IMG/VR virus record: IMGVR_UViG_3300029219_000015
Direction: 5' to 3' (one strand)
Source of the DNA: a virus
Lineage: Duplodnaviria > Heunggongvirae > Uroviricota > Caudoviricetes
DNA: 36,605 nucleotides
Shown here: piece by piece, positions 2,282 to 33,641 of the stretch
Layout of the letters: each line of letters starts with the position of its first letter
Position numbering within the stretch: the stretch's first letter is position 1
Position numbers and translations under genes: made by a program
Notes under the pieces: generated by a model
The model's database searches: none
What the model was told of the DNA's origin: nothing
The model's input: the letters and a program-made list of their open reading frames with translations, nothing else

Positions 2282-2382
2282 ATTGCTGAAAATGAGTTAC
2301 TTTTACTCTTGATCCTATAAGAATCTATGCCTAATATACTGTTTACTTATACAGTGCATCGGCGTAACTCGGTGATTGTCAT

Positions 2383-3867: not shown

Positions 3868-4118
3868 GGTTACAACCTTTGCGCGTTCAATTCTCTCTGG
3901 TAAGTGCTTACCGATATTACATCAAAGGTTAGGGTTGTAAAGCTATTATCATTTTTTTCGATAGGCACTTAAAAGACCGGTTAAAGGCCATTGCACGGAG
4001 AAAAATTAGCCCAAAACAGGTAAGAAAATCAACTTGCATATGATATGAATGTATTCAGTATTGATACAAATTTTAGTAGTATTCCTTACCATAGTATAAG
4101 TTAGAATGGATTGATTGA

Positions 4119-4331
4119 ATGAACACCACTATTTCCAGCCTAATCGCTCTTGAGATCGGACACGTACAGAAATTAGCTGATGAGTGTGTAGCTGACATCC
4201 TCACCGATCTACCGAATGAGCAGATTCAGGTTGGTGTGAATGACACAACTGGCTTTATATTCGAACTTAACAACAAACGCTTCACGCTTCTCAATACCGG
4301 CTCCTGGTCTTTAGCCGTCAGAATCTGTTAA
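4119..4331 (+). CDS. Hypothetical small protein
   Basis: 70-aa ORF divergent from the HTH gene; weak RBS. Confidence 0.4.
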   Translation: MNTTISSLIALEIGHVQKLADECVADILTDLPNEQIQVGVNDTTGFIFELNNKRFTLLNTGSWSLAVRIC

Positions 4332-4429: not shown

Positions 4430-6538
4430 ATGTCTAAAAAACGTTCCATCAAAGAGGTTCAGGACTTCCGTGACAGTGTAAAACGAGTAGTCGCTCTCCT
4501 TTCAGGTAAAAACATCCCTGTTGCAGAACGAGGGGACGACGCTTATGTACGCTATAACGATGATGGAGAGCCAATTCTCGTAAACATCCCATCAATCCCG
4601 GATAACGCAACACCGGCATTGATGAATGCTGTGCGCGGATTTCTCGATCATGAGGTTGCTCACATTTTGTTTACCGATATTCGTGTGTCCAACAAAATGA
4701 GAGAAAAAGGACGCGTTCCTTCCTGGTCGCTATGGAATGCCTTAGAAGACGTGTTCATCGAGCGAAAAATGGGTCAGGTCTTTAACGGAACAAGACGTAA
4801 TCTGATGGCAACTCAGCGCCTTATAATCGAAAAAGTCTTTAAACCAAAGGCTTCAGAGGCTATTGCTTATTGTGGCAAAGATCAGCGCGCGCTTTTTCTA
4901 AACTTCTTTCTCTGTCCGGTTGTAAGAGCCTGGGATGGCCAAGCACCGTTCGTAGATTTCATGGATGAATATTGGCCTGTCATTGAGAAACCAATTTCAT
5001 TATTAAAAGAACATGGTATCGATGTGGCCGTGCGTAACATGTCTTGCACCGAGGATTGTGTAAAGGTGGCTGCGACCATAGCTAAGATCCTCAAAGACAC
5101 TGAAAGTGAAAGCAAAGGTAAGGAGTCAGCTCCGGGAAAAACTTCCGATCCTTCAGACGCTGACCAGACGGATGCCTCTGGAGAAAACAATGAAGACAAC
5201 GAAGATCATGAGACACCCTCAGCGTTAGATAATCACAAATCTATCAAATCAGAATCACACAGTAAGCACAAACATGATAATAACGACAGTGATGATTCAG
5301 ATAATTCTGAATCATCAGAAACAATATTCGATGATACAGAAAATGATAAAGAGGTATCAGATTCTGGTGCTTCTGATAACGCGGCGTCAGAATCATTTAC
5401 CACTGACCACGAAAAAAGAAAATCGACAGAAGACGGCTCTTCAGACATTCCAACTCCGTCAAAAATGAGTCTGGAAGAGGCTTTAGAGGAGTTGGATAGC
5501 ATGGAAGATGAAGTCGGAGGCATGACAGAAGATGCGCTATCCGAAACGATTAAAAGCGAGTTAACAGAAAGCTCGAAAAGCGAATACAGGCCATACAATC
5601 GCTCATACGACTTCATCGGCTCGATTGATCAGGCAGAAGCCCATATCAAACGGCTTATTAAAACATTCTCCGATATTGATTTAGGTGGATATCCAATCAG
5701 CCGTTATCGCATCGTTCCTGAAGGCAACCAACTCTTCGACAAATATATTGAAAAGCACCTTTCGTCAGGTGTTTCGTCGACGCTGGCAAAAGACCTGGAA
5801 CGTGCAATAGCAAGCAGAAACAGAGTTCAGTTTATACCTGGCCAGCGTCGGGGGCGCATTCATGGTTCAAGTATCTACAGATTAACAATGAATGATGATC
5901 GCGTGTTTCGTAAAAAAGAAGAATCTAAAGCCGTTAACGCCTGTGTTCAACAAGTGATTGATTTATCGGGTTCAATGAGTGGCGAAACGATAAAACTAGC
6001 TCTTGCAAGTGCATATACCATCGCCGATGCACTTGATCGAATAAATGTTCCCAACATTATCACCGGCTTCACTACATTTGGTAGTCATATGGCGGCAGGA
6101 GAACTTAAGGCTGTCAAGTATGAGTTCTCTCGCTTTGAATCTTTAATGCTACCTATCATCAAAAATTGGAATGAAAAGGTAAATTCTCGCGAAGTTCGCT
6201 CACGTATGGGGTGCGTAGGCTACACATTCCCACTTCTTAATAACGTGGATGGTGAAAGCATAGCCAGCCTTGCATCGTTATTTTCCGGTCGCATGGAGGA
6301 CAGGAAGATCATGCTTGTTCTGAGTGATGGCGCGCCGTGGGCTGTTGGGAGAGGTTTTGACGCTCATTTGCGTTCAGTTGCGAAGCAAATTGAAACGCAG
6401 ACTGATATTGATTTGATGGCAATTGGCATCATGACTGACGCACCGGAGAGATTTTACTCAAATCATGCCCTGGTAACGAGCGTTGATAGTCTTGGTTCAT
6501 CTGTAGTTACTGAACTATCTCGTATCATTTTAAAGTGA
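4430..6538 (+). CDS. CobT-like protein with C-terminal von Willebrand A (vWA) domain and long acidic S/D/E-rich linker
   Basis: 702 aa; AAAGGA RBS; MIDAS-like DLSGSMSG motif in the C-terminal third; roughly 160-aa acidic low-complexity region; HEVAH (HExxH-like) near the N-terminus; immediately followed by an AAA+ ATPase gene. Confidence 0.7.
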   Translation: MSKKRSIKEVQDFRDSVKRVVALLSGKNIPVAERGDDAYVRYNDDGEPILVNIPSIPDNATPALMNAVRGFLDHEVAHILFTDIRVSNKMREKGRVPSWSLWNALEDVFIERKMGQVFNGTRRNLMATQRLIIEKVFKPKASEAIAYCGKDQRALFLNFFLCPVVRAWDGQAPFVDFMDEYWPVIEKPISLLKEHGIDVAVRNMSCTEDCVKVAATIAKILKDTESESKGKESAPGKTSDPSDADQTDASGENNEDNEDHETPSALDNHKSIKSESHSKHKHDNNDSDDSDNSESSETIFDDTENDKEVSDSGASDNAASESFTTDHEKRKSTEDGSSDIPTPSKMSLEEALEELDSMEDEVGGMTEDALSETIKSELTESSKSEYRPYNRSYDFIGSIDQAEAHIKRLIKTFSDIDLGGYPISRYRIVPEGNQLFDKYIEKHLSSGVSSTLAKDLERAIASRNRVQFIPGQRRGRIHGSSIYRLTMNDDRVFRKKEESKAVNACVQQVIDLSGSMSGETIKLALASAYTIADALDRINVPNIITGFTTFGSHMAAGELKAVKYEFSRFESLMLPIIKNWNEKVNSREVRSRMGCVGYTFPLLNNVDGESIASLASLFSGRMEDRKIMLVLSDGAPWAVGRGFDAHLRSVAKQIETQTDIDLMAIGIMTDAPERFYSNHALVTSVDSLGSSVVTELSRIILK

Positions 6539-6633
6539 ACAAAACAGCCTTAACGATAAGTAACCACTTACGATAGATAATGATATATTTATATAAGAAG
6601 TTGAACGCTCATTAGAAAACAAAGGAAAAACGC

Positions 6634-7869
6634 ATGACTACTACTGCACTGCAAAATGAAAAAAATCCTTCTGATTACCTTGTTTGCAAGTGGTGCGGAA
6701 AATCATTTCACTATTTTAAGTCCCATGTAGCCAATGGTAATTGCGAGGGCATTCCTGAGTCAGTAAAAGATGCCGATCCTGACACCGTACTGAAAATGTA
6801 CACAACACAGTTTCCAGATGAGCCAACGCTATCGAAAAAGGCACTTGATGCAATTCAAGCTAAACGTGCCGAGCAAAAAAGCGAAATGGCCAAATCATCT
6901 GGCGTGACCAGTAGCCCAGGCTACACAGGCACAGTTGAGTACAAGACAGATCTGGTCGCAGCTCACGAACTGCTAAATGTAACGGTGAAAGAACTCGGAA
7001 CAAAACGTGGGACGCCGCTCATGGTTAGCGTCAACGTCAATACGCCGTTTCCAGAGTTCGTTCCAGAAGTGAAGAAGGGATACGTATATGGCGACTTCGA
7101 ACTGATCAAAGACATTTTCATGATGCTTGAACTTGGCATACCTGGCTATTTGTGGGGTCATGCAGGAACAGGCAAATCTTCATTGCCTACACAACTATGT
7201 GCTTTGCTCAATCGTCCGTTAATCCGTGCCCAACATACAGCATCAATGGAAGAGGCTCATGTTACGGGACAAATTCTGGCGCGTGATGGCTCTACGTATT
7301 TCGAGCCTGGCTTGCTTGCGCTCGCAATGAAGCATGGCTGGGTTTACCTCGCGGATGAATACGACTTTGCGTTTCCACAGATTCTTGGCGTGTATCAGCC
7401 AGTGCTGGAAGGTGAAGCGTTGGTCATCAAAGAGGCGACTCCAGAATGGCGTCGCATTACTCCGCATGAACGGTTTGCTTTCATTGGCACTGGCAACACG
7501 AACGGATCTGGTGATGAAACCGGCTTGTACCAGGGTACAAACATCCAGAACGCCGCGAACTTTTCGCGTTTTGGCATCGTTTCGAATGTGAAATACATGA
7601 GCAAAGAGGCAGAGATCAACATGTTGATAAATGCCGGTATCGTGGATGAATACGCAGAAAAGATGGTTAAGTTTGCCGGTATCGTTCGCGATGGATACGA
7701 AGAACACCTTATCAGTCAGCCAATTGGCCCTCGTGAACTTTTGTTGTCGGCCAAGATTGGAATGATGCGAGGCGACTTTGTGACAGGTATTGAGCGTTCT
7801 TTCATTAACAAACTCCCTTCAGCTTCTGCACAAGCGGCTCGTGAAGTTGTTCAAAAAATATTTGGTTAA
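6634..7869 (+). CDS. CobS-like / MoxR-type AAA+ ATPase with N-terminal Cys-rich zinc-ribbon-like segment
   Basis: 411 aa; Walker A GHAGTGKSS; Walker B VYLADEYDFA; N-terminal CKWCG...C...C; AAAGGAAAAACGC-ATG initiation region. Confidence 0.75.
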   Translation: MTTTALQNEKNPSDYLVCKWCGKSFHYFKSHVANGNCEGIPESVKDADPDTVLKMYTTQFPDEPTLSKKALDAIQAKRAEQKSEMAKSSGVTSSPGYTGTVEYKTDLVAAHELLNVTVKELGTKRGTPLMVSVNVNTPFPEFVPEVKKGYVYGDFELIKDIFMMLELGIPGYLWGHAGTGKSSLPTQLCALLNRPLIRAQHTASMEEAHVTGQILARDGSTYFEPGLLALAMKHGWVYLADEYDFAFPQILGVYQPVLEGEALVIKEATPEWRRITPHERFAFIGTGNTNGSGDETGLYQGTNIQNAANFSRFGIVSNVKYMSKEAEINMLINAGIVDEYAEKMVKFAGIVRDGYEEHLISQPIGPRELLLSAKIGMMRGDFVTGIERSFINKLPSASAQAAREVVQKIFG

Positions 7870-11871: not shown

Positions 11872-12087
11872 TCAGCTTAGAGCAACGACATTTGCTGCTG
11901 CTGGGCCTTTAGCCCCATTCTCGATAGAGAATTCGACCTGCTGGCCTTCTTCCAAAGTGCGGAAATTATTACTCTGAATTGCCGAAAAATGTACAAAAAC
12001 ATCTTTACTGCCATCAGCAGGAGAAATAAAGCCAAAGCCTTTATCAGAGTTAAACCATTTTACTAAACCAGTCATTTTATTAGACAT
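11872..12087 (-). CDS. Cold-shock protein, CspA family
   Basis: 71 aa [38 protein letters not shown]... closely matches CspA (RNP1 KGFGFI and RNP2 VFVHF motifs); AAGAAGG 8 nt before the internal ATG at 12087. The ORF-track start at 12183 is rejected. Confidence 0.85.
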
Positions 12088-12416: not shown

Positions 12417-12980
12417 TTATGCGCATTTCGCAATATCTTTGCGGCGTTTAATCAGTTTCTCCGCAATTTGCTCTATTTCGTTGAAATCTTTCGAGACGCT
12501 GTTTCGAAGCGCCAGATTCCATTTACTCAAAGTTCGGGCATTTTGGACAATTTGATCGCCCTCTTTAAGTCGTCCGTTATTCATGAGCCATTCAGCCACA
12601 TCAGCCCAATCCCAGAGAGGAGACTGGCCTTTTATGCGTTGTACAGGGCAAGGGAAGTCGCCGCTTCCGCGCTTACCGTCTTTGAGCAACGCCACTGCCT
12701 GGCGAGACAGGTCTGTCAGTTCCGCGATATCGCTTAAGCCCACAAGAGCCGAGTCGACGGATTCAACAATTGCACCGATACCGGCTGATTCAATATTGTC
12801 GACCGCAGATGCGATAGCTGCATCAAGTGATTGTGCTTCGCGGTCAAATTCTACATAGACGGAGTTTCCATATGCGCAAATTAGCGCATCGTCACAGCCG
12901 TTTTGGTACAGCGCGTCTTCCAGTCCTTCCGTCTCATACGATACGCCTGAGAGCGTCAGAGTGAAGTTATAAAGCGCCAT
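12417..12980 (-). CDS. HicB-like antitoxin candidate with HTH-like segment
   Basis: 187 aa from the ATG at 12980 (AAGGA RBS); central LSDIAELTDLSRQAVALL HTH-like stretch; follows a HicA-like gene in the same orientation; perfect hairpin GCCCGCC-AATT-GGCGGGC just 3' of the stop. Confidence 0.5.
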   Translation of the reverse strand: MALYNFTLTLSGVSYETEGLEDALYQNGCDDALICAYGNSVYVEFDREAQSLDAAIASAVDNIESAGIGAIVESVDSALVGLSDIAELTDLSRQAVALLKDGKRGSGDFPCPVQRIKGQSPLWDWADVAEWLMNNGRLKEGDQIVQNARTLSKWNLALRNSVSKDFNEIEQIAEKLIKRRKDIAKCA

Positions 12981-13040
12981 AGTTTTCCTTTGAAGATAGT
13001 TGGACAGTTTCTGCAAAAGGCGGCTAATGCCGCCTTGAAA

Positions 13041-13265
13041 TCATTTACAACGATCAACCATTCGTTTGATCTGTTTGGCATGGTTTTCGGGATTACCCGG
13101 AGTCGACCATACGCTCATTTGGTGAGTTTTGTGTTCACCTTCTGGATTACCGCATCGCAGTCTGCAAAAACAATGTGCAGCACCACCAGCTGCTACCCAG
13201 ATCCAGCCTTTACTTAATGCATAGTCAATGGCTGCTTGAATATGCTTATTCGGATGTTGCTTCAT
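13041..13265 (-). CDS. HicA-like toxin candidate (small mRNA-interferase-like protein)
   Basis: 74 aa; MKQ...SKGWIWVAAGGAAHCFCRLRC...STPGNPENHAKQIKRMV resembles the HicA pattern (G-x-x-V-x-x-G-x-x-H...LR then a basic C-terminus) from memory; GGAGG RBS; canonical promoter upstream. Confidence 0.5.
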   Translation of the reverse strand: MKQHPNKHIQAAIDYALSKGWIWVAAGGAAHCFCRLRCGNPEGEHKTHQMSVWSTPGNPENHAKQIKRMVDRCK

Positions 13266-13311: not shown

Positions 13312-13519
13312 CGGCGACTGAATTTCATCCGTTCATGCCACACCCCCATCCATCTCATGTATGTGACCTAAAGATGGTCAGCACAGCTTACCAAAATAAG
13401 ACAACTAATTATCTTCGGTGATCTCAATATTTTCCCCTGAACAAAGTTGACATGACGCCATAAACCCATTCTCTGTTTGATATAATTGATACAGATTTTA
13501 TAAGTAGGAACCTATTAGA

Positions 13520-13951
13520 GTGAACACTGATATTTTTTCTAAAATCATGGCCGATCTGGAGTTCGACCGCGACAACCTTGAGGAAGTATGGCGTAAACAG
13601 CCACGGCTTTTAATGGAGTATGGGTCAAAACTAGCGCAGGCAGATCGAGATGTCGCAGAGGCAAAACTTAACCTTGAAGCTGTTGAAGCAAAGCTATACG
13701 ACACAGAGCGTAAGAACTTGAGTATGAACGGCATTAAGTTCAACGAGTCTGTACTGGACGCTAAGGTTAAAACAAACCCACAGTATCTGTCTAAACGGCA
13801 GAAGTTGGATGAAGCACGGCACATCGCAGACATATACAAACATGCTGTCGCCGCCTTTTCGCATCGCCGAGACATGATCGTTCAGGCGTCAAAGATGGCC
13901 ATCGTTGAATTAGAGCGATTAGGCTCTGAACGCTTTATTACTCCCCGTTGA
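13520..13951 (+). CDS. Hypothetical protein, likely alpha-helical
   Basis: 143-aa ORF with GTG start after AGGAA; a TG-extended -10 (TGATATAAT, 13478-13486) lies upstream; function unknown. Confidence 0.55.
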   Translation: MNTDIFSKIMADLEFDRDNLEEVWRKQPRLLMEYGSKLAQADRDVAEAKLNLEAVEAKLYDTERKNLSMNGIKFNESVLDAKVKTNPQYLSKRQKLDEARHIADIYKHAVAAFSHRRDMIVQASKMAIVELERLGSERFITPR

Positions 13952-14068
13952 TTTTTGATAGATAATAAGTAAGTACTGATCTATCATTTAACAGCTCGAA
14001 AGAGCCACGAATGAACGAAAGCCCAACGCGCATAGCGCCATCGGCCAAATCACAACAAGGAGAAACAC

Positions 14069-15097
14069 ATGTCTAAGACATTACTTGATTTGCTTAACAA
14101 AACTCGTGAAGACATTGCCGCCAAACGTGGCAACAACGTTGATCTGACTCGCTTAAAAGACGGCGTCAACTATATCCGCATCTTCCCGAATAAAGACGAC
14201 CCAAACGGTAAGTTCTTCCAGACTTTCGGTATGCACTACGTTAAGTATCAGAACGAGGAAGGTAAAGAAGCAACCAACGCTTATATTTGTGAGCAACATA
14301 CTCACGGTCGCGCTTGTCAGCTATGCGAAATGGTTATGGAAGGTCGCGCTCGTCACAAGGGTAACAAAGCAATGGAAGAACGCATCGGTCAAATGCGTGC
14401 CACTCCTCGCTACCTGGTCAACGGCATTCTTTCTGCTCGTGAGGATTTCGCAGATGCTGAGAAATGCCAGTTAATCGAGCTGCCGTCTACTGTATTCGAT
14501 GATATCTGCAAAGCAATCACCGAAGACATCGCTGATGATATCGGCAATCCACTGAGCAAAGAGGAAGGCTACGCATTCCTGATTAAACGTACTGGCTCTG
14601 GTCGCGATACCAAATATGACGTCTCGCCTAAGCGTAAAGTCTACAAAGGCGATATCGAAGATAAATTCTGGAACACCCAGCATGATCTGATCGCATACGC
14701 AAATCAGGCTGATGAAACTCGTCTTCTGTCGACAGTTCGCACTATGGGTCGTCTGATTGGCATCGCTGCACCAACTGCCGCAGCATCTGCACCAGCAATT
14801 TCCTCAACCGCGAAAACATCGGCTGCGGCACTACCTGGATTTGGCTCTGTCACTGGTCATACAGAAGGTGCGACGGCTGTAGCAACCGCGCACACACCGG
14901 CTTCTGAACCAACCAGTCTGGTTGATGAAGAAATCCTCCGTGCCGTTGAAACTGAATTTAAACCAGAAGCAAGCTCCGCTGCCGTTGCCGTATCAGTCAA
15001 AGAGTCTGAAGCAGTCGCAGCGACATCTGTAGCAACCGCATCTGCGACGGAAGATGAAGGTCTGGATGACCTACTGAGAGAGCTGGACTCTCTGTAA
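14069..15097 (+). CDS. Single-stranded DNA-binding protein, T4 gp32-like
   Basis: 342 aa; IRIFPNKDD... N-terminal region, Zn-binding-like C-x2-H...C-x2-C (CEQHTHGRACQLCE), Ala/Ser-rich linker and acidic tail DEGLDDLLRELDSL resemble gp32; AAGGAGAAACAC-ATG. Confidence 0.75.
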   Translation: MSKTLLDLLNKTREDIAAKRGNNVDLTRLKDGVNYIRIFPNKDDPNGKFFQTFGMHYVKYQNEEGKEATNAYICEQHTHGRACQLCEMVMEGRARHKGNKAMEERIGQMRATPRYLVNGILSAREDFADAEKCQLIELPSTVFDDICKAITEDIADDIGNPLSKEEGYAFLIKRTGSGRDTKYDVSPKRKVYKGDIEDKFWNTQHDLIAYANQADETRLLSTVRTMGRLIGIAAPTAAASAPAISSTAKTSAAALPGFGSVTGHTEGATAVATAHTPASEPTSLVDEEILRAVETEFKPEASSAAVAVSVKESEAVAATSVATASATEDEGLDDLLRELDSL

Positions 15098-16370: not shown

Positions 16371-18710
16371 ATGGCAAAAGGAAAATCCGCACTGGCACTT
16401 GCTCTGAAAAAGAAAATCGGTAGCAACGACGAAATTCAGAAAGTAACTCATTGGATTGATACAGGCTTTCCACCGTTAAACAAAGCTATTTCTGGTCGTT
16501 ACGATGGCGGCTTCCCATGTGGTCGTATCGTCGAAGTATTCGGGCCACCAAGCGCGGGGAAATGTGTTACCGCAGACACCATGCTGCTGACGGAGCGTGG
16601 AATGGTAACAGTGAAAGAGTTGTTTGAGATTGAAGGGTACAAAGCGACATGCACTACTCGCGATGTAGAGCATAACGTTGGACTCATCAATGAAAATGGC
16701 GTGATAGAGAAGACCTCACACCTGACATGGAACAACCGTCGCAAATTCAAGCGTATTAAGCTGGCATCAGGCGGTTATATCGAGGCTACGTTCCGTCACC
16801 CAATCCGTGTGGTTGACGACTTAGGTAATGTCGTCTGGCGACATGCTGAAAAAATCAGTGTAGGCGACACGATTCCTTCAATGGTTGGCACACATCAATT
16901 CGGCGATCAGCACCTGGATGCCAATATCGCACAACTGATGGGCTATTTAATTGCTGACGGATACGTGGCCTCTGAAAATTCAGTGAATTTTTCTAACACA
17001 GATCCTTTCATCAAGGATGAGTACTACCGCCTCATTTCGCTGGTATCAGACAAGATGCCAGTTACGAGAAAACATAACGGCTCGGAAGACCATGTGCTGT
17101 TTAGCAAAGAGGTGCGTTCGCTGCTTTTTAAAGAATATGGTCTGGAGTATGAGAAAGCTGCTGGCAAGCAGGTTCCGTTGAGTGTGCGTCGCGCCAATAG
17201 CGAGGCTCAAATTGCATTCCTTCGCGGCTACTTTGAGCTGGAATGCCACGTCAATGATGGTCGCTGCATTGAGGTTGTGAGCGCGAGTGGGCTGCTGCTA
17301 CAGCAAATTCGCCTCATGCTCCTGAATCTGGGGATTACGTCAACTATCTCTGAAAAACACGTCGCGGGTTATGAAAATACATATTACCGGCTGTCATTCA
17401 GTGGCTCTAATTACGACCTTTTTCTGTCAACGATTGGTTTCGAATCTCCGGCACGTTTATCAGTGGCAACCAAACGGGACATTGGTTTTGACCGCACTTA
17501 CTCAGGCTATGTTCCGCACATCAGCGGCTTAGTGAAATCACTCTACGAGTCGCTCACCAAGACCACCCGTGAAGACTACGCTCTGGTAGACCACGTTATT
17601 GGCCGCGGCGATCGTGTCGGAATAGACAAACTGCGAGAAATCTATGTCTCCTTCATTGGCAGAAAGAATCGTTTTAACGAGCATCTGTTTGCACAACTGG
17701 CAGCGGTAATTGGCTCTAACTTGTTCTACGACGAAGTCGTGGCTATTGAGGAAGGTGAAGCACCAACGTTCGACGTAGCGATGCCGGAAACACACTCTTT
17801 CTGGTCTAACGGGATTATCAGCCACAACACATTCCTTGCAACAGCAGCGATGATCTCCGCTCAAAAACAAGATGGTCTGGCGGTATTCCTCGATCATGAA
17901 AACAGTTTTGACGTTGGCCTGGCTGTAGCCAATGGCCTGAACGCAGATGAGGATGACGGTCAGTGGGTATACAAGCAGCCAGATACCTTCGAAGACTCTG
18001 TAGAGTTGATCGGCACAATACTTAAATTGGTTCGTGATGAAGAGCTTATCCCCGAATCAGCACCTATCTGTATCGTGGCTGACTCTCTTGCGTCTATGGT
18101 TCCGAACTCCAAAGCCGAGAAGTTCGAAAAGATGGCTGAAGGCACAGCCAAAGACAAAGATCAGCTAAACATGAACGACAATACGGCACTGGCTCGTGCG
18201 ACGAGTGCGAACTTCCCTACTCTGGCTTTGTGGGCACGCAAATACAACGCCTGCATCATCTTCTTGAATCAGGTTCGCACAAAAATCGGTGTAATGTTTG
18301 GCGACCCTACTACGTCGCCAGGTGGAGATTCACCGAAGTTCTACGCTTCTGTACGTATCCGTCTTGGTGCATCGGTGATGAAGGATGGTAAAGAGAAGAT
18401 CGGCCAGGACGTAGGCGCAGAATGCATCAAAAACAAAGTTGCACCACCGTATGGCAAATGCACCTGGAAATTCTACTTCGATCCTACTCGTGGCCTCGAC
18501 GTTATCGAGTCGCTCGTCGAGTACATGCTGGAAGAAGGATACCTGCCAAAGAACGCCAGCGGTCGAGTAGAAATTGGTGACAAGAAATACACCAAATCAC
18601 AGATCGTCGAGATGTATCGGGAGAAGCCACTAGCTGAAATCATTGCGGCTTTACAGGCAATCGACGACCGGAGATCAAAAGACAATCCCACCGAGTCAGT
18701 AGAAGAGTAA
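16371..18710 (+). CDS. recA: RecA-family recombinase interrupted by an in-frame intein (precursor 779 aa; predicted mature protein about 357 aa)
   Basis: N-extein ends GRIVEVFGPPSAGK and the C-extein starts T, reconstituting Walker A GPPSAGKT; C-extein FLNQVRTKIGVMFGDPTTSPGGDSPKFYASVRIRLG matches the RecA core; AAAGGAG RBS. Confidence 0.85.
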   Translation: MAKGKSALALALKKKIGSNDEIQKVTHWIDTGFPPLNKAISGRYDGGFPCGRIVEVFGPPSAGKCVTADTMLLTERGMVTVKELFEIEGYKATCTTRDVEHNVGLINENGVIEKTSHLTWNNRRKFKRIKLASGGYIEATFRHPIRVVDDLGNVVWRHAEKISVGDTIPSMVGTHQFGDQHLDANIAQLMGYLIADGYVASENSVNFSNTDPFIKDEYYRLISLVSDKMPVTRKHNGSEDHVLFSKEVRSLLFKEYGLEYEKAAGKQVPLSVRRANSEAQIAFLRGYFELECHVNDGRCIEVVSASGLLLQQIRLMLLNLGITSTISEKHVAGYENTYYRLSFSGSNYDLFLSTIGFESPARLSVATKRDIGFDRTYSGYVPHISGLVKSLYESLTKTTREDYALVDHVIGRGDRVGIDKLREIYVSFIGRKNRFNEHLFAQLAAVIGSNLFYDEVVAIEEGEAPTFDVAMPETHSFWSNGIISHNTFLATAAMISAQKQDGLAVFLDHENSFDVGLAVANGLNADEDDGQWVYKQPDTFEDSVELIGTILKLVRDEELIPESAPICIVADSLASMVPNSKAEKFEKMAEGTAKDKDQLNMNDNTALARATSANFPTLALWARKYNACIIFLNQVRTKIGVMFGDPTTSPGGDSPKFYASVRIRLGASVMKDGKEKIGQDVGAECIKNKVAPPYGKCTWKFYFDPTRGLDVIESLVEYMLEEGYLPKNASGRVEIGDKKYTKSQIVEMYREKPLAEIIAALQAIDDRRSKDNPTESVEE
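16563..17828 (+). mobile_element. Intein (422 aa) with LAGLIDADG-type homing endonuclease motifs, inserted in the RecA P-loop
   Basis: Begins with Cys (CVTADTMLL), ends IISHN followed by extein Thr; internal LMGYLIADGYV and FLRGYFELECHV resemble LAGLIDADG motifs; boundaries inferred from extein continuity. Confidence 0.8.
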
Positions 18711-18740: not shown

Positions 18741-18802
18741 TCTCTTGAAAATATATAAGTGCTTACTTATCATTTTCACATAACAACCACATAGGAAAAC
18801 AC

Positions 18803-19003
18803 ATGATCAAAATCTATCTATTGGCAGTAGCCACAGGCCTTTCAGTGGCTCTCATCTACGGATTACTGGTTCCGTCGCTGATTTCTGCAAAGAGTGATTT
18901 GGCCGTCATGCTTGGAGTTCTCGTTGGTTTTGGAGCTCCAGTAATCGGTCTTATTGGTGGTCGTAAGTTTATTAACTCATTAATCAAAGCAAAGGGGAAA
19001 TAA
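18803..19003 (+). CDS. Small two-helix membrane protein
   Basis: 66 aa with two hydrophobic segments; AGGAAAACAC-ATG; stop is 3 nt before the next gene. Confidence 0.6.
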   Translation: MIKIYLLAVATGLSVALIYGLLVPSLISAKSDLAVMLGVLVGFGAPVIGLIGGRKFINSLIKAKGK

Positions 19004-20354: not shown

Positions 20355-20409
20355 TCGCCTATTCATAACTAACAAAATAAGTAAACACTAACCACAAAAG
20401 GAAAAACAC

Positions 20410-20685
20410 ATGAGAGTTTTAGTTCGAATCGTTACCAGCACTGTCTATGACGTGTTTCCACTTTTTATGATCAAAGTCGATGGCCTTAACGACGAAGAAA
20501 CTGACGCGCTGATCCAGCGTACTCTTGTTGAATATACAGGTCATGACGCTGATTCAGTGATGGTTGATGATGATGGTGTTTGTTGGCATAACGGCAACTG
20601 TTGGTACGTAGAAGAGACTCAACAAATCAGTGATGAAGATGCCGAACATCTTGAGCGTATTTTAAGCATCAGCACTTTTGAGTGA
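20410..20685 (+). CDS. Hypothetical acidic small protein
   Basis: 91-aa ORF with AAAGGAAAAACAC-ATG. Confidence 0.6.
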   Translation: MRVLVRIVTSTVYDVFPLFMIKVDGLNDEETDALIQRTLVEYTGHDADSVMVDDDGVCWHNGNCWYVEETQQISDEDAEHLERILSISTFE

Positions 20686-20724
20686 GTTTACAGTAAAATT
20701 TATATAAGTTAGTATCTACCTATC

Positions 20725-20904
20725 ATGAAGATTTTTATTGAATACTTGTTACTCATCGTTTCAATAGCTTTTGTCATCGACTGCATTTTCACCGGTGTCA
20801 TTCGTAAAGTCTTTTCCCCGGTGAACGACGTAGTCATAAACGCTTTGGCTATCGTGCTCGTATTTAATTCAGCATTTGATGTAATCAAAGAGGTGGCAGC
20901 ATGA
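20725..20904 (+). CDS. Hypothetical small hydrophobic (membrane) protein
   Basis: 59-aa ORF below the ORF-track cutoff; hydrophobic; its stop overlaps the next start (ATGA). Confidence 0.35.
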   Translation: MKIFIEYLLLIVSIAFVIDCIFTGVIRKVFSPVNDVVINALAIVLVFNSAFDVIKEVAA

Positions 20905-24088: not shown

Positions 24089-24342
24089 CCCTCCAGATCG
24101 TATATTGGCGTAGATAGAATCTACGCCCCCTCAAAATAGCTCTCATAGCGTTCTACAGTGATCCTGTCTTATTTTTAGTCATACAGACAAGCAAAGTTGC
24201 GCCACGATAAATAGGTATATACTTACTTATAAATTTTGTATATTAAGGCGCTCGTTTCATTCCTAACATACCGTTATGCATAGTTGTTTACCTTCTCATT
24301 GCTCTTAGAATTTGTATCAAAATAATCACAAAGGAAAAACAC

Positions 24343-25428
24343 ATGACTTTGCCATACGGCGTCATTTCTGACTGCCACTACCACAAATGGGATGCGTTCT
24401 CCACGACGAACGCTGAGGGGCTTAACTCCAGACTTGAAATACAGTTGGAAGCAACGAAAGAAGCAGCCATCGCCATGAAGAAGGCCGGTTGTAAGTACAT
24501 GTTGGTTGCCGGTGATACATTTCACGTCCGAGGAACTGTGTCCCCTTCTGTTTTGCATTACGTAACTGAAACGTACAAGTGGATTATCAACGAGCTTGAT
24601 CTGACAGTAGTAATGCTGGCCGGTAATCACGATCTTGAAACCAACGATTCAGTATATAGCGCCAACGCAGCAGCATCGCTGAGTTCTATCGGCGTGGTAA
24701 TCGTATGTGGCAAGCGCCCACACTCAATAAAAATTGGTGATGTGACTGTCCACCTGATTAGCTGGCGTAACAATCATGCGGAGCTTATCAGCGATCTGAA
24801 AGCATTACGTAAGAGCGTAGAAGGTGATAATCATGACGTTGTTATCCATACATCCATTAACAAAGCCATTCCAACAATGCCTGACGTCGGTATCGATGCG
24901 CAGGAGTTAAAGGATATCGGCTTTCGTCTCGTGCTTAGTGGGCATTACCACAACCACAAAGAGGTCATTCCTGGAGTTATCAGTGTTGGTGCACTGACTC
25001 ATCAAAATTGGGGAGATGTTGGATCTCTGGCTGGCTACATGATCGTAAACCCGGACGGCAGTTTCAGTCACTACGAAACCAGTGCGCCTAAATTCATTAA
25101 CCTGGAAGATGATGTTGCTGATGACCAAATTCGCGGCAACTACGTGCGTTTCCGCGCCGTAATTGAGAACGATGAAGAAGGCATTAAGTACCAGAACATC
25201 CTCAAAACAATGGGTGCAAAAGGTGTCGTGTGCAACTTCATCCGTAAGTCATCAATGATGGAAGGGACAGCCAGCACAACTGAAACCAGCAAAATCGATA
25301 GCCTGGGAGAGTCGGTATCTGCTTATTGCAAGATTGTCCACGATACTGACGGCGGATTTGATCTGAGCAAATTGGATATTTTGTGTCAGGAAATCCTCAC
25401 CGAAGCGGAGAGTTCGGAGGCTGTGTGA
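24343..25428 (+). CDS. SbcD/Mre11-like nuclease (calcineurin-like phosphoesterase; T4 gp47-like)
   Basis: Phosphoesterase motifs DCHYH, GDTFH, GNHD, GHYH in the expected order; AAAGGAAAAACAC-ATG. Confidence 0.8.
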   Translation: MTLPYGVISDCHYHKWDAFSTTNAEGLNSRLEIQLEATKEAAIAMKKAGCKYMLVAGDTFHVRGTVSPSVLHYVTETYKWIINELDLTVVMLAGNHDLETNDSVYSANAAASLSSIGVVIVCGKRPHSIKIGDVTVHLISWRNNHAELISDLKALRKSVEGDNHDVVIHTSINKAIPTMPDVGIDAQELKDIGFRLVLSGHYHNHKEVIPGVISVGALTHQNWGDVGSLAGYMIVNPDGSFSHYETSAPKFINLEDDVADDQIRGNYVRFRAVIENDEEGIKYQNILKTMGAKGVVCNFIRKSSMMEGTASTTETSKIDSLGESVSAYCKIVHDTDGGFDLSKLDILCQEILTEAESSEAV

Positions 25429-28886: not shown

Positions 28887-28920
28887 TTTCATTGATAGGT
28901 AAGTGCTTATCTATTAACAT

Positions 28921-28959: not shown

Positions 28960-31275
28960 ATGATAAGCATCGTAAAACGTAACGGCCAAACAGAGCCGTT
29001 ATCCGAAGAAAAATACAACCGCGTCGTAATGTATGGCGTAGAAGGCATTCGTGGTGTAAGCGCATCCGCTGTAGCAATGGGAGCTGCGGCCAGCATTTTT
29101 GATGGGATTACCACCAGCCAGTTGCATGAGGCTTTGGTTAAATCTGCCGCTGATTTGATCTCACCAGAAGCACCAAATTACTCACAGGTGGCTGCCCGCC
29201 TGAACATTTTTAAAATCCGCAAAGATGCCTTCGGTCGTTACGACTATCCGAACTTCTACCAACACATTGTCAAGAACGTTAACAAGGGCGTTTATGACAA
29301 GGATTTGCTGACACATTATTCGTTTGAAGAGATCGAAGAACTCGGCAATTACATTAAGCCGAAACGTGACGATCTTTTTGGCTATGCAGCTACGGTGCAG
29401 TTGCAAAGCAAATACCTCGTTCAAAACCGTGTTACTGGTGAGATTCATGAGGGGCCGCAACATATCTATATGCTGGTAGGCATGTGTCTGTTCCAGAATT
29501 GGGAAGACGACTGCGCTGGCAAAACACGTATGGAGATGGTCAAAGGTTTCTATGACGTTACAAGTACGTTCAAACTGTCTCTGCCCACACCAATCATGGC
29601 CGGCGTCCGTACTCCAACCCGTCAGTTCTCCAGTTGTGTGCTGATTGAGTCTGGCGATAGTCTGAAAGGGATTAGTGCAGCTTCAGCCGCAATTATCGAC
29701 TACGTTTCACGTCGTGCTGGAATTGGTATTGGTTTTGGCCGTATCCGTGCGCTGGGCAGCGAGATCCGCAATGGTGAAGCCACCCATACCGGAGTTATTC
29801 CATTCCTGAAGCATTTCCAGACGGCTGTTAAATCTTGTTCGCAAGGTGGTGTTCGTGGTGGCGCAGCAACAGCGTTTTACCCGATCTGGCATCTTGAAGT
29901 TGAAAGTCTGCTGGTGGTGAAAAATAACCGTGGTATTGATGAAAACCGCGTTCGCCATCTTGATTACGGCGTCATGAGTAACCGTCTAATGTACCGTCGA
30001 CTCGTCAGAAGCGAGAACATCACTCTGTTCAGCCCGCATGATGTGCCTGATATGTACGAAGCCTTCTTCACAGACCAGGAGCTGTTTGAAAAGCTGTACC
30101 ATAAATACGAAGCCGATGATTCAATTCGCAAGAAGCCAGTACCTGCCATTGAGCTGTTCTCATCTCTGATGCAGGAACGAGCGTCCACGGGCCGAATTTA
30201 TATTGCGAACGTAGATCATATTAACGAGCATGGCGCTTTCATTCCTGCTCTTGCACCTGTTCGCCAGTCAAACCTGTGCATGGAGATCACTCTACCCACT
30301 CGTCCACTGGCATTTACCGACGACCCGAACGGTGAGATCGCGCTATGCACTTTATCCGCTTTTAACCTCGGAGCCATCCGTTCACTGGAGTCTCTTAAAG
30401 AGGTGGCGTTCTATGCCGTTGCTGCACTGGATTCGTTACTGGATTATCAAGACTATCCGATGGAGGCAGCCGAAGTGCCTGCCAAAGCTCGTCGTAGCTT
30501 GGGAATTGGTGTAACCAACTTTGCTTATTACCTGGCAAAGAATGGCGTTCGTTATTCTGATACCGCTGGCAATAAACTGGTGCATGAAACGTTCGAAGCT
30601 ATCCAGTATTACCTTCTTGATGCCAGCTGCCGACTTGCTGAAGCAAAAGGTGAGTGTGACTGGTTTGAGCAGACCAAGTACGCAATTGGTCAGTTGCCGA
30701 TCGACCATTACCGTTCTTCATTAGACGAAAGTGGCGAAACCAACTTTGAGTTAAAGATGCCGTGGGAAGAACTGCGTGAACGTATTGCAAAATACGGCCT
30801 TCGCAACTCCACACTGACGGCACAAATGCCATGCGAGACTTCCAGCCAGATCACTAATTCCACCAACGGCATCGAACCGCCTCGTGGCCCGGTGTCGGTG
30901 AAATCTTCTAAGGACGGCATCGTTAAGATGGTCGTGCCTGAGTTTGAAAAACTGAAGGAACAGTATGAATACCTGTGGGATATGCCGGACAACCGCGGCT
31001 ATCTGACAAAGGTGGCGATCATCCAGAAGTTCTTTGACCAGGCTATTTCAGCCAATACCAACTATGACCCTTCTCGCTTTGAAGGCGATAAAGTCCCAAT
31101 GATGACGCTACTGTCAGATTTGCTTCTCGCCTACAAGATGGGAGTTAAAACGCTTTACTACCACAACACCAGAGATGGGGCAGGAAAGCGTGATGACGAC
31201 GAACCGCAGAATCCACTGACGCAAGCTGTAGCCGTCGAGCCAGAAGATGAGTGCGACGGAGCCTGCAAAATCTGA
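28960..31275 (+). CDS. nrdA: Ribonucleoside-diphosphate reductase class Ia alpha subunit
   Basis: 771 aa; N-terminal ATP-cone-like VKRNGQTEPL; active-site NLCMEITLP; C-terminal Cys pair; length and order match NrdA. Confidence 0.85.
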   Translation: MISIVKRNGQTEPLSEEKYNRVVMYGVEGIRGVSASAVAMGAAASIFDGITTSQLHEALVKSAADLISPEAPNYSQVAARLNIFKIRKDAFGRYDYPNFYQHIVKNVNKGVYDKDLLTHYSFEEIEELGNYIKPKRDDLFGYAATVQLQSKYLVQNRVTGEIHEGPQHIYMLVGMCLFQNWEDDCAGKTRMEMVKGFYDVTSTFKLSLPTPIMAGVRTPTRQFSSCVLIESGDSLKGISAASAAIIDYVSRRAGIGIGFGRIRALGSEIRNGEATHTGVIPFLKHFQTAVKSCSQGGVRGGAATAFYPIWHLEVESLLVVKNNRGIDENRVRHLDYGVMSNRLMYRRLVRSENITLFSPHDVPDMYEAFFTDQELFEKLYHKYEADDSIRKKPVPAIELFSSLMQERASTGRIYIANVDHINEHGAFIPALAPVRQSNLCMEITLPTRPLAFTDDPNGEIALCTLSAFNLGAIRSLESLKEVAFYAVAALDSLLDYQDYPMEAAEVPAKARRSLGIGVTNFAYYLAKNGVRYSDTAGNKLVHETFEAIQYYLLDASCRLAEAKGECDWFEQTKYAIGQLPIDHYRSSLDESGETNFELKMPWEELRERIAKYGLRNSTLTAQMPCETSSQITNSTNGIEPPRGPVSVKSSKDGIVKMVVPEFEKLKEQYEYLWDMPDNRGYLTKVAIIQKFFDQAISANTNYDPSRFEGDKVPMMTLLSDLLLAYKMGVKTLYYHNTRDGAGKRDDDEPQNPLTQAVAVEPEDECDGACKI

Positions 31276-33471: not shown

Positions 33472-33539
33472 TTGTAGGTAGTTATCTATCTATGTATATT
33501 GTGTTGGCGCGTTAAATTCCTGAAACAACTATTCGTTTT

Positions 33540-33565: not shown

Positions 33566-33641
33566 TCTATCTGGCCTTGTTCTCTCAATAAATGTAAACT
33601 CACGTAATGAATAAGTGGTTACTTATCTTTGTGAGGTTTTT

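What the first reader, a model, noticed from the sequence alone, without database searches (positions are those of the whole stretch)
18755..18770. Recurring palindromic intergenic motif (ATAAGT-N4-ACTTAT; core TAAGTGCTTA) upstream of many operons
Near-palindromic sites recur in intergenic regions just upstream of gene starts: ATAAGTGCTTACTTAT (18755-18770), ATAAGTGGTTACTTAT (about 33608-33623), ATAAGTAACCACTTAC (about 6557-6572), GGTAAGTGCTTACC (3899-3912) and GGTAAGTGCTTATC (about 28898-28911). Looser versions occur near 1848-1870, 13965-13980, 20705-20720 and 24222-24240. The 10-mer TAAGTGCTTA occurs exactly three times. This looks like an operator or promoter element for a regulator encoded by the element, possibly the HTH protein at 3481..3867, whose own upstream region carries a copy.
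Basis: seen in the sequence. Interest (0 to 1): 0.5.

Follow-up and report, generated by a model that had tools for sequence, protein, structure and literature searches.

The report
Dispersed repressor operators of a phage-plasmid
The recurring palindrome is real: it marks the starts of about 27 transcription units in an SSU5/pHCM2/pMT1-type phage-plasmid. It is most likely the binding site through which one small phage repressor keeps the whole virus silent while it lives as a plasmid.

Summary
The window is the DNA-metabolism arm of an E. coli SSU5-like phage-plasmid. A matrix trained only on Salmonella and Klebsiella relatives finds 12 motif loci in the window, all intergenic (about 0.2-0.65 hits expected). 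It finds 27 loci in a complete close relative, ahead of both early and late operons.

The consensus is TAAGTA-NN-TACTTA, with weaker symmetric flanks. TAAG and CTTA occur only 2, 6 or 10 bp apart.

The arms are more conserved than neighbouring intergenic DNA (89% against 73.5%). In a distant Acinetobacter relative both arms change symmetrically (TAAG to TCAG, CTTA to CTGA). This is the signature of a dimeric DNA-binding protein, not of an RNA hairpin or a core promoter.

The best candidate binder is the XRE-type helix-turn-helix (HTH) protein at 3481..3867. It is present in essentially every plasmid-form relative and is expressed in lysogens. A copy of the motif abuts the -10 of its own promoter and is invariant in 76 of 80 metagenomic loci. 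The protein is missing only from the lytic isolate SSU5, so it is not an activator of lytic genes. Binding itself is untested.

The closest analogues are the P1 C1 operators and the L5 stoperators. I rate this a new member of a known kind, of moderate interest.

The parts
1836..1861 (.). Motif locus 1. Two overlapping registers (TAAGTTACTACATACTTA), 65-69 nt before the glutaredoxin gene 1927..2172.
   Evidence: Matrix scores 13.2 and 14.4 bits; pattern hit.
3897..3918 (.). Motif locus 2. GGTAAGTGCTTACC (3899-3912) abuts the -10 of the HTH gene's own promoter, over its expected transcription start. It lies in the divergent HTH/orf70 region.
   Evidence: 14.5 bits. It is the most conserved block of the intergenic alignment across E. 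coli, S. Typhi pHCM2, Y. pestis pMT1 and Klebsiella. The 22-mer GGTAAGTRCTTACYGATATTAC occurs once, at a fixed distance from the HTH gene, in 76 of 80 IMG/VR loci.
3958..3971 (.). Weak second site (TCGATAGGCACTTA, 2 mismatches), 57 bp from locus 2.
   Evidence: Read from the sequence. The AGGCA core is conserved in the alignment. It scores below the matrix threshold.
6553..6574 (.). Motif locus 3. TAAGTAACCACTTA lies between cobT-like 4430..6538 and the AAA ATPase gene 6634..7869.
   Evidence: 18.4 bits. A perfect copy sits at the syntenic position in nearly all 80 IMG/VR loci, in SSU5 and in Klebsiella.
13497..13518 (.). Motif locus 4. TAAGTAGGAACCTA, 28 nt before the UvsY-like gene 13547..13951.
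   Evidence: 14.1 bits.
13962..13987 (.). Motif locus 5. TAAGTAAGTACTGATCTA lies inside a promoter-like TAGATA-17-TATCAT, before the gp32-like single-strand-binding gene 14069..15097.
   Evidence: 20.8 and 15.3 bits; promoter scan; orthologous copies in SSU5 and Klebsiella.
18748..18773 (.). Motif locus 6, the reported site. ATAAGTGCTTACTTAT fills the spacer and -10 of TTGAAA-17-TATCAT, directly after terminator 18715-18735 and 29 nt before gene 18803..19003.
   Evidence: 23.8 bits; promoter and terminator scans. The -35, palindrome arms and -10 are conserved in SSU5, while the spacer and downstream DNA differ.
20374..20395 (.). Motif locus 7. TAAGTAAACACTAA, 14 nt before gene 20410..20685.
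   Evidence: 15.0 bits.
20701..20726 (.). Motif locus 8. TAAGTTAGTATCTACCTATCAT abuts the start of gene 20725..20904 and lies within promoter-like TTTATA-16-TATCAT.
   Evidence: 13.1 and 18.5 bits; promoter scan; conserved in SSU5 and Klebsiella.
24208..24233 (.). Motif locus 9. TAGGTATATACTTACTTA, about 110 nt before the SbcD-like gene 24343..25428.
   Evidence: 26.6 bits, the best score in the window.
28892..28917 (.). Motif locus 10. TAGGTAAGTGCTTATCTA lies within promoter-like TTGATA-17-TAACAT. It is followed by hairpin 28921-28942 and then nrdA 28960..31275.
   Evidence: 20.4 and 18.0 bits; promoter and terminator scan; SSU5 ortholog TAGGTAAGTACTTATCTA.
33471..33492 (.). Motif locus 11. 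TAGGTAGTTATCTA, just after the MazG-like gene 32602..33471.
   Evidence: 16.2 bits.
33608..33629 (.). Motif locus 12. ATAAGTGGTTACTTAT, 12 nt before thyX (33642..34745) and about 50 nt after terminator 33540-33558.
   Evidence: 19.7 bits; terminator scan.
3481..3867 (-). Candidate binder: a 128-aa XRE-type helix-turn-helix (HTH) protein, identical to CYRAN_45 'putative repressor' of phage Cyrano.
   Evidence: Pfam HTH_19 at 19.7 bits, below the 30.2-bit cut-off. PHROG 8 'transcriptional regulator', E=1e-11. AlphaFold model pLDDT 75. Foldseek matches have weak E-values (0.02-0.2) but are consistently XRE repressors: Stl, C.BclI, HigA, 434. Found in 995 plasmid records, essentially all SSU5-like plasmids. 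100% identical to CYRAN_45, which is expressed in LF82 lysogens at about 10x background (PMC9928086).
3914..3941 (-). Predicted promoter of the HTH gene: TTTACA-16-TAATAT.
   Evidence: Promoter scan. Both hexamers are invariant across five lineages.
2309..2355 (+). SOS-type promoter TTGATC-17-TAATAT with LexA box TACTGTTTACTTATACAGT (2337-2355). It lies before integrase 2383..3486, whose 3' end overlaps the 3' end of the HTH gene. It is the inferred induction input.
   Evidence: Sequence. The box TACTGT-N8-ACAGT sits at the same place in nearly all 80 IMG/VR loci, in Klebsiella and in OW968253.1.

Best explanation
The motif is a set of operator sites for one dimeric DNA-binding regulator encoded by the phage-plasmid. 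There are 12 sites in the window and about 27 in the genome. Each is an inverted pair of TAAGTA half-sites. The usual form is TAAGTA-NN-TACTTA, and some sites overlap as TAAG-TA/TG-CTTA.

The sites sit at the heads of transcription units, in or beside sigma-70-type promoters and often right after a terminator. They precede both DNA-metabolism and virion operons.

The most likely binder is the 128-aa XRE-type HTH protein at 3481..3867. In the plasmid (lysogenic) state it would occupy all sites, block RNA polymerase at lytic promoters or act as a roadblock, and hold down its own promoter through the copy over its start site.

Induction would come from the SOS response. A LexA-controlled promoter drives the integrase gene convergently into the repressor gene.

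Shown: existence, enrichment, symmetry, conservation, positions, and the distribution of the HTH gene. Inferred: binding by the HTH protein, repression, and the induction route.
For: (1) Enrichment and placement. 15 perfect TARGT-N4-ACYTA sites occur in pMB5646_2 against 0.27 expected, and 14 of 15 are intergenic. An independent matrix finds 18 hits in 12 loci in the window, all intergenic, and 27 loci genome-wide, 25 of them in unannotated or intergenic DNA.

(2) A DNA palindrome read by a dimer. Information content is symmetric and falls to about zero outside the palindrome. Arms are 89/100 identical between the window and SSU5, against 73.5% for other intergenic DNA and 75% for the spacer. 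In an Acinetobacter relative both arms change together, to TCAG-N6-CTGA / AGTCAGTACTGACT, with 11 perfect sites against 0.6 expected.

(3) Operator-like positions. The palindrome lies in the -35/-10 spacer or over the -10 at 18745-18773, 13959-13987, 20699-20726 and 28892-28920. It abuts the -10 of the HTH promoter.

(4) The HTH candidate. It has an XRE fold. It is present in essentially every SSU5-like plasmid, with per-genus counts close to those of backbone DNA hits. Its operator-plus-promoter block is invariant across HTH identities of 56-100%. The recognition-helix motif KN.NN is kept wherever the motif is TAAG. Residue N39 is Arg only in the TCAG clade.

(5) The lytic isolate SSU5 lacks the HTH gene yet grows, so the protein is not needed to activate these promoters.

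(6) In LF82 lysogens the HTH gene is expressed (96 counts), while genes just after motif sites sit at background (median 9) (PMC9928086).
Against: No binding or transcription-start data exist. The HTH-motif covariation rests on one contrast (enterics against Acinetobacter), across which everything else also diverged.

SSU5 keeps 17 perfect sites without the HTH gene. This is weak evidence, because SSU5 is about 97.5-98% identical to HTH-bearing plasmids, so the loss looks recent.

Half-sites occur at spacings differing by 4 bp (N2, N6, N10), which a rigid dimer should not tolerate equally.

Several sites lie only 0-20 nt from start codons, leaving little room for a promoter downstream of them.

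Genes directly after sites are not significantly more induced in the macrophage RNA-seq than other lytic genes (p=0.097). One site-proximal gene, CYRAN_34, is moderately expressed in lysogens.
Confidence: 0.55

Rival explanations
1. The sites are bound by a different phage-encoded regulator. Examples are a lytic-phase factor that shuts off the HTH promoter and activates or co-ordinates lytic operons, or a ParB-family global regulator like KorB of plasmid RK2. The HTH protein would then have other targets.
For: SSU5 has no HTH gene but keeps 17 perfect sites. Two ParB_N proteins and several small unannotated proteins are conserved in SSU5, and a site lies 14-19 nt before the first parB-like gene. 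The motif precedes late as well as early operons.
Against: Pfam finds no HTH or other DNA-binding domain in the ParB_N proteins or the other conserved candidates tested, and the 174-aa 'regulator' is an FljA-type RNA-binding protein. A palindrome in the -35/-10 spacer with normal 16-17 bp spacing is a repressor position, not an activator position. SSU5 lost the HTH gene only recently.
Confidence: 0.2
2. The motif is itself a phage-specific promoter element, read by RNA polymerase with a phage sigma factor or co-factor, as with T4 middle/late or P1 late promoters.
For: Sites follow terminators and precede genes. TATCAT-like hexamers often adjoin the right arm.
Against: The element is symmetric, and nothing asymmetric is conserved at a fixed distance. 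The TATC is mirrored by GATA on the other side, so it is part of the palindrome. The distance to start codons ranges from about 0 to 200 nt. Arms occur in three registers. No sigma factor or RNA polymerase gene appears in the curated Cyrano annotation.
Confidence: 0.08
3. A host transcription factor of Enterobacterales binds the sites, and a different host factor does so in Acinetobacter.
For: The motif is constant across E. coli, Salmonella and Klebsiella elements and changes in the Acinetobacter relative, that is, with the host group. From memory only, the outer bases resemble the RcsAB box TAAGAATATTCCTA.
Against: It does not match the LexA box (CTGT-N8-ACAG), which occurs separately in the same element. 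By recall it also fails the RcsB core (GA...TC against GT...AC here). About 27 copies in a 110-kb element, plus a copy locked to the element's own repressor promoter, point to a self-encoded factor.
Confidence: 0.07
4. The palindromes act as RNA hairpins, for example processing, stability or translational control sites in polycistronic transcripts.
For: They lie in intergenic positions, some 0-20 nt from ribosome-binding sites. A conserved FljA/Hfq-like RNA-binding protein is encoded by the element.
Against: Many sites pair TAAGT with ACCTA, which gives A-C mismatches on the sense strand, and no TAGGT...ACCTA compensated pairs were seen. Sequence rather than pairing is conserved. The N2 form leaves no loop. 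Sites after terminators need a new promoter, not a hairpin.
Confidence: 0.03

Closest known systems
Phage-plasmid P1: C1 repressor and its many dispersed operators (from established knowledge)
   Same: A plasmid prophage in which one repressor controls many operators scattered over a roughly 100-kb genome, overlapping the promoters of lytic-function operons. The repressor lacks a LexA-like cleavage domain, so induction is indirect.
   Different: P1 operators are asymmetric 17-mers (ATTGCTCTAATAAATTT), and C1 is a large protein unrelated to XRE. Here the sites are palindromes of TAAGTA half-sites, the candidate is a 128-aa XRE protein, and sites also precede virion operons directly. In P1, late operons are reached through the activator Lpa.
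Mycobacteriophage L5 gp71 'stoperators' (from established knowledge)
   Same: About 30 copies of one short repressor site lie in short intergenic gaps throughout early and late operons. This suggests silencing by roadblock as well as by promoter occlusion.
   Different: Stoperators are asymmetric 13-mers with one orientation relative to transcription. The present sites are symmetric. The host and the repressor family also differ.
Operators of XRE/Cro-CI repressors: 434 (ACAA-N6-TTGT) and P22 C2 (TTAAG-N4-CTTAA) (from established knowledge)
   Same: A 14-18 bp palindrome with 4-5 bp half-sites about one helical turn apart. An autoregulatory copy sits at the repressor's own promoter. The protein fold is shared.
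   Different: Those repressors act at two or three clustered operator regions, not about 27 dispersed loci. The 4-bp register series (N2/N6/N10) is not a known feature of them.
RK2/IncP KorB (ParB family) OB operators (from established knowledge)
   Same: A short palindrome repeated about a dozen times near promoters around a plasmid genome gives one global regulon.
   Different: The KorB-type HTH was not detected in the ParB_N proteins here. The sequence is unrelated (TTTAGCSGCTAAA).

Membership tests
Dispersed lysogeny-repressor operators (P1 C1 type) | Many copies of one site dispersed over the prophage genome, far above chance | tested here: met
   27 loci in pMB5646_2 against 0-1 in shuffles. 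15 perfect sites against 0.27 expected.
Dispersed lysogeny-repressor operators (P1 C1 type) | Sites overlap or adjoin promoters of lytic-function operons | tested here: inconclusive
   All sites are intergenic and upstream of genes. Five coincide with sigma-70-like hexamer pairs and several follow terminators. No transcription-start data exist, and some sites are too close to start codons to precede a promoter.
Dispersed lysogeny-repressor operators (P1 C1 type) | Sites are bound by the prophage's maintenance repressor | not testable with these tools
   Only indirect support: an autoregulatory copy, the distribution of the HTH gene, and the N39R / A-to-C covariation.
Dispersed lysogeny-repressor operators (P1 C1 type) | Downstream genes are silent in the lysogen while the repressor is expressed | tested here: met
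   LF82 RNA-seq table: HTH 96 counts; site-proximal genes median 9, which is background (PMC9928086). An activator model predicts the same pattern.
L5-type stoperators | Asymmetric site with a fixed orientation relative to transcription | tested here: not met
   The enteric sites are symmetric in sequence and information content. 6557 and 33612 are the same sequence in opposite orientation.
XRE/Cro-CI HTH repressor (for protein 3481..3867) | Five-helix lambda-repressor-like HTH domain | tested here: met
   PHROG 8, E=1e-11. Foldseek E-values are weak (0.02-0.2), but the matches are consistently XRE proteins: Stl, C.BclI, C.AhdI, HigA, 434. Pfam HTH_19 scores 19.7 bits, below its 30.2-bit cut-off.
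LexA (SOS) box | CTGT-N8-ACAG | tested here: not met
   The motif arms are TAAG/CTTA. Genuine LexA boxes occur separately, at 2337-2355 and before the umuD-like gene.
Phage-specific core promoter | Asymmetric conserved element at a fixed distance from the transcription start or gene | tested here: not met
   There is no information outside the palindrome. Distances to start codons range from about 0 to 200 nt.
Structured RNA element (hairpin) | Pairing maintained by compensatory or wobble changes on the transcribed strand | tested here: not met
   TAAGT...ACCTA (an A-C mismatch) is frequent, and no compensated TAGGT...ACCTA pair was seen.
KorB/ParB-type global operator | Cognate ParB-family protein carrying an HTH DNA-binding domain | tested here: inconclusive
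   Two ParB_N-only proteins are present and Pfam finds no HTH in them. No structure search was done on them.

The most novel reading that the evidence does not exclude
SSU5/pHCM2/pMT1-type phage-plasmids may be silenced by an unusual 'lattice' operator system. A 128-aa XRE protein would read TAAGTA half-sites laid out on a TA-every-4-bp lattice that tolerates N2, N6 and N10 registers. It would occupy about 27 sites, including roadblock sites inside virion operons. It would be switched off not by cleavage but by SOS-induced, LexA-controlled integrase transcription running antisense through the repressor gene. A second palindrome, AAACAA-N-TTGTTT, would define a second regulon. If true, this is a lysis-lysogeny circuit not described for any phage-plasmid.
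Probability: 0.2. Interest if true: 0.6.

Novelty: new member of a known kind. Interest (0 to 1): 0.45.

Why it matters
SSU5-like phage-plasmids are common in clinical Enterobacterales. They matched more than 800 plasmid records here, including pHCM2 of S. Typhi, pMT1 of Y. pestis and Klebsiella elements, and the literature reports that some carry resistance genes. Their lysis-lysogeny control has not been described in the papers I could search.

A defined operator set plus a candidate repressor gives three things:
- a predicted map of transcription units;
- a direct handle for inducing or curing these elements;
- a testable recognition-code pair: Asn39 with TAAG against Arg39 with TCAG.

It also adds an apparently independent example of genome-wide, multi-operator silencing, alongside P1 and L5.

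Tried and rejected
- RNA hairpin reading: rejected because of A-C mismatches and because sequence rather than pairing is conserved.
- LexA box, or any host box I could recall: no match. The RcsAB resemblance is from memory only and fails at the core bases.
- Tyrosine-recombinase core sites: rejected by reasoning. The spacer is too short, and about 27 recombination sites in one replicon would be destructive.
- Type I restriction target: rejected. The sites are confined to intergenic DNA, and the restriction-modification system is not shared by relatives.
- 'SSU5 lacks the HTH gene, so the HTH protein cannot be the binder': I first took this as strong evidence. I downgraded it after finding that SSU5 is 97.4-98% identical to HTH-bearing plasmids.
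- RNA-seq test of stronger induction for site-proximal genes: not significant, p=0.097.
- PDB sequence search for the HTH protein: nothing found.
- IMG/VR search for divergent HTH clades, to obtain more motif/helix contrasts: it returned only the same enteric clades at 56-100% identity.
- Literature searches for SSU5/pHCM2 repressor, operator, motif or transcriptome: no description of the motif. One 2026 bioRxiv preprint on a phage-plasmid and heteroresistance matched the terms 'promoter' and 'lysogen' many times but could not be opened.
- Technical problem: only some fetched loci were copied to the Python sandbox (later calls copied one or two), so some loci had to be fetched twice.

Full report
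**What the window is.** The 36.6-kb window is 99% identical to E. coli plasmids of about 109 kb, such as pMB5646_2 (NZ_CP103659.1). It is 97.5% identical to phage Cyrano (pLF82) and about 80% identical to Salmonella phage SSU5 and to Klebsiella phage-plasmids. It is therefore the DNA-metabolism and replication arm of an SSU5/pHCM2/pMT1-type phage-plasmid. The genes include cobT/cobS-like, dnaE, uvsY-, gp32- and recA-like, sbcCD-like, nrdAB and thyX. Nearly all genes are on the + strand.

**Observation check.** TAAGTGCTTA occurs three times against 0.04 expected. TAAGTNNNNAC has 10 distinct sites. All are intergenic once thyX is started at 33642, as in the Cyrano annotation, rather than at the GTG at 33615.

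To avoid circularity I trained a 22-bp symmetrised matrix only on perfect sites from SSU5 and a Klebsiella plasmid. It finds 18 hits at or above 8 bits in the window, in 12 loci. All lie in the 15% of the window that is intergenic, and Markov shuffles give 0.65. Three loci (13501, 20378, 33475) were not in the finding.

**Genome-wide picture.** I rebuilt the complete close relative pMB5646_2 from two fetched pieces plus the window. It has 15 perfect TARGT-N4-ACYTA sites against 0.27 expected, 14 of them intergenic. With the matrix there are 27 loci, 25 in the 19% of the genome without annotated genes.

The sites precede DNA-metabolism operons. They also precede genes annotated as portal protein, the gene just downstream of portal, a tail protein, minor tail protein, tail fibre, holin, parB-like protein and helicase. 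The motif therefore marks the heads of most transcription units of the virus, early and late.

An unbiased scan for enriched 5-mer inverted repeats ranks TAAGT-N4-ACTTA first in pMB5646_2 and third in SSU5.

**Anatomy.** Fifty-nine sites from pMB5646_2 and SSU5 give the consensus a.ATAAA|TAAGTA-a-n-TACTTA|CCTAT. Information is symmetric about the centre and drops to about zero beyond roughly 13 bp on either side. The often-seen TATC(AT) on the right is mirrored by GATA on the left, so it belongs to a weaker outer part of the palindrome. The idealised full form would be GATAGGTAAGTA-TA-TACTTACCTATC.

TAAG and CTTA are enriched only at spacings of 2, 6 and 10 bp. Direct TAAGTAAG is also enriched, so TA recurs every 4 bp through a site. 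How one protein would accept registers 4 bp apart is unexplained.

**Conservation.** SSU5 has 17 perfect sites at orthologous places. The Klebsiella plasmid pKP4823_2 and the more divergent OW968253.1 keep the motif. The cobT/cobS site is a perfect match at the syntenic position in nearly all of 80 IMG/VR loci.

In window-versus-SSU5 alignments the ten arm positions are 89/100 identical. The figures are 75% for the four spacer bases, 73% for flanks and 73.5% for other intergenic DNA. The Klebsiella comparison gives 36/40. Close relatives differ mainly in the spacer, for example TAAGT-GCTT-ACTTA against TAAGT-ACTT-ACTTA at 18756.

**A symmetric change in a distant relative.** An Acinetobacter baumannii phage-plasmid (NZ_CP155459.1) shows similar gene order around the HTH gene. 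It lacks the enteric motif, with 2 TAAG-N6-CTTA copies in 50 kb. It has TCAG-N6-CTGA / AGTCAGTACTGACT instead, with 11 perfect sites against 0.6 expected, mostly intergenic. The N2/N6 register pattern and the direct TCAGTCAG repeat are the same.

One base changed in both arms at once. This is what a dimeric protein site does. It argues against chance, against a core promoter and against an RNA structure.

**RNA or DNA?** Read as + strand RNA, many sites pair TAAGT with ACCTA, which gives an A-C mismatch. No compensated TAGGT...ACCTA pair was found. The N2 form leaves no loop. I therefore treat the element as acting at the DNA level.

**Relation to promoters.** The consensus scan places the palindrome in the spacer or over the -10 of four sigma-70-like promoters: 18745-18773 (TTGAAA-17-TATCAT), 13959-13987, 20699-20726 and 28892-28920. 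Sites 18752 and 33608 follow strong intrinsic terminators, so a new promoter is needed there.

At 18745-18773 the -35, the arms and the -10 are conserved in SSU5, while the downstream leader is not. Other sites lie 0-20 nt from start codons. There they would sit at or after the transcription start, which is compatible with a roadblock but not with an upstream activator site. No transcription-start data were available.

**Who binds?** The 128-aa protein at 3481..3867 has a weak Pfam HTH_19 match below the cut-off and belongs to PHROG 8, 'transcriptional regulator'. Its model (pLDDT 75) matches XRE-family repressors: Stl, C.BclI, C.AhdI, HigA and the 434 repressor. Foldseek E-values are weak, 0.02-0.2.

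With the adjacent integrase, it is present in 995 plasmid records. Per-genus counts are close to those of backbone DNA hits: Klebsiella 348 against 328, Escherichia 230 against 231, Enterobacter 92 against 91, Yersinia 63 against 63, Salmonella 49 against 49. It is 100% identical to CYRAN_45. The Cyrano authors call CYRAN_45 the putative repressor and find it expressed at 10x background in lysogens (PMC9928086).

In the HTH/orf70 intergenic region the most conserved block across E. coli, S. Typhi pHCM2, Y. pestis pMT1 and two Klebsiella species has three parts. These are the -35 (TTTACA) and -10 (TAATAT) of the HTH promoter, followed immediately by GGTAAGTRCTTACC over the expected start. The 22-mer covering the operator and the -10 occurs once, at a fixed distance, in 76 of 80 IMG/VR loci whose HTH identity ranges from 56% to 100%. 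This is the classic layout of negative autoregulation. OW968253.1 has two tandem copies next to its HTH gene, and the Acinetobacter element has three TCAG-type copies in the same region.

The recognition-helix region is G-Y-K-N-A/P-N-N/I-L-S-L-I-K-S-G in all TAAG-type elements. It is G-F-K-R-P-N-V-L-S-M-I-K-S-G in the TCAG-type element. N39R is the only change there that is unique to that clade. Asn to Arg alongside A:T to C:G fits common recognition preferences. That is inference from a single contrast.

**The SSU5 exception.** SSU5 has no homologue of the HTH protein, and the integrase-HTH block is missing at the tRNA/cobT junction. I first read this as evidence against the HTH protein as binder. 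However, SSU5 is 97.4-98% identical over 25 kb to plasmids that carry the gene; CP082664.1 appears in both lists. The loss therefore looks recent, and retention of the sites says little.

What it does show is that lytic growth does not need the HTH protein. If the protein binds these sites, it acts as a repressor, not an activator.

**Expression data.** In the LF82 RNA-seq table, genes directly after motif sites sit at background in lysogens (median 9 normalised counts). The HTH gene (96), repA (133) and the toxin-antitoxin and par genes are expressed.

At 6 h in macrophages the largest rises include orf70 (CYRAN_46), CYRAN_56 and CYRAN_60-62, which follow sites. As a class, though, site-proximal genes are not significantly more induced (mean +2.75 against +2.23 log2, p=0.097). 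The data fit the model but do not discriminate between repressor and activator.

**Induction.** The HTH protein has no S24 peptidase domain. A good LexA box (TACTGTTTACTTATACAGT, 2337-2355) lies right after a TTGATC-17-TAATAT promoter, 28 nt before the integrase gene. The integrase 3' end overlaps the 3' end of the HTH gene.

The box is at the same place in nearly all 80 IMG/VR loci, in Klebsiella and in OW968253.1. Cyrano is induced by ciprofloxacin (PMC9928086). I infer that SOS-induced convergent transcription lowers repressor expression. This is untested.

**Rivals.** Another phage regulator, either a lytic-phase factor or a ParB/KorB-like protein, cannot be excluded. The candidates I scanned show only ParB_N, an FljA-type RNA-binding domain, or no domain at all. 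A core-promoter reading fails on symmetry and variable distances. A host factor is unlikely, given the copy locked to the element's own repressor promoter and the lack of a match to the boxes I checked.

**Comparison and novelty.** Functionally this resembles the dispersed C1 operators of P1 and the L5 stoperators. Structurally it resembles the 14-18 bp palindromes of 434 and P22 repressors. It differs from P1 and L5 in being symmetric. It differs from lambdoid systems in being dispersed at about 27 loci including virion operons, and in its 4-bp register series.

I found no description of it in the searchable literature. One possibly relevant 2026 preprint could not be read. I rate it a new member of a known kind, of moderate interest.

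Noticed in passing
window 19901-19911 and 31339-31349; 12 copies in pMB5646_2, 13 in SSU5: A second dispersed palindrome, AAACAA-N-TTGTTT, is usually preceded by a conserved ..ATAAGAA. It lies mostly 10-40 nt before start codons. In the window it precedes the DUF7238 gene 19929 and nrdB 31382; elsewhere it precedes terS, parA, dnaB-like and cobT. Both window copies follow intrinsic terminators (19854-19873, 31281-31299). It looks like the site of a second regulator, that is, a second class of transcription units.
   Followed up: partly
window 2309-2355 (promoter plus LexA box), integrase 2383..3486, HTH 3481..3867: A conserved LexA-controlled promoter drives the integrase gene convergently into the repressor gene, and the two 3' ends overlap by 6 nt. 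The box TACTGT-N8-ACAGT is at the same position in nearly all 80 related loci. This is a possible route to SOS induction by antisense transcription or transcriptional interference.
   Followed up: partly
all motif sites; window, pMB5646_2, SSU5, Klebsiella and Acinetobacter relatives: TAAG...CTTA (TCAG...CTGA in Acinetobacter) is enriched only at spacings 2, 6 and 10, and TAAGTAAG direct repeats are enriched. TA therefore recurs every 4 bp. A rigid dimer should not accept registers 4 bp apart, and this remains unexplained.
   Followed up: partly
window 16371..18710: The RecA/UvsX-like gene encodes 779 aa, against about 358 aa in SSU5 and Klebsiella. It carries an intein with a LAGLIDADG homing endonuclease, at roughly residues 73-486.
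   Followed up: yes
window 4119..4331 (orf70, PHROG 2627): This small acidic protein is transcribed divergently from the repressor gene. Its Cyrano counterpart CYRAN_46 shows the largest rise of any + strand gene among CYRAN_1-73 in LF82 at 6 h in macrophages (log2 4.3 to 10.8). It has no HTH match and could be an anti-repressor or an early switch protein.
   Followed up: no
SSU5 (NC_018843) around 42.5-42.8 kb, compared with window 845-4331: The lytic isolate SSU5 lacks the whole block that carries the integrase, the HTH gene and orf70. It is otherwise 97.4-98% identical to HTH-bearing plasmids over the 25 kb compared. It looks like a recent repressor-deletion derivative of a temperate phage-plasmid.
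   Followed up: partly
window 28921-28942: A strong terminator-like hairpin (GGGCCACTATATTTAGTGGCCC followed by a T-run) lies between motif locus 10 and the nrdA start at 28960. It is conserved in SSU5 and may be an attenuator in the nrdA leader.
   Followed up: no
window about 84-690, 11872..12087(-), 12417..13265(-): There is a tRNA cluster at the left end (Asn, Thr and Ser in Cyrano), a cspG-like cold-shock gene, and a HicAB toxin-antitoxin pair on the minus strand. The toxin-antitoxin pair is highly expressed in lysogens.
   Followed up: no
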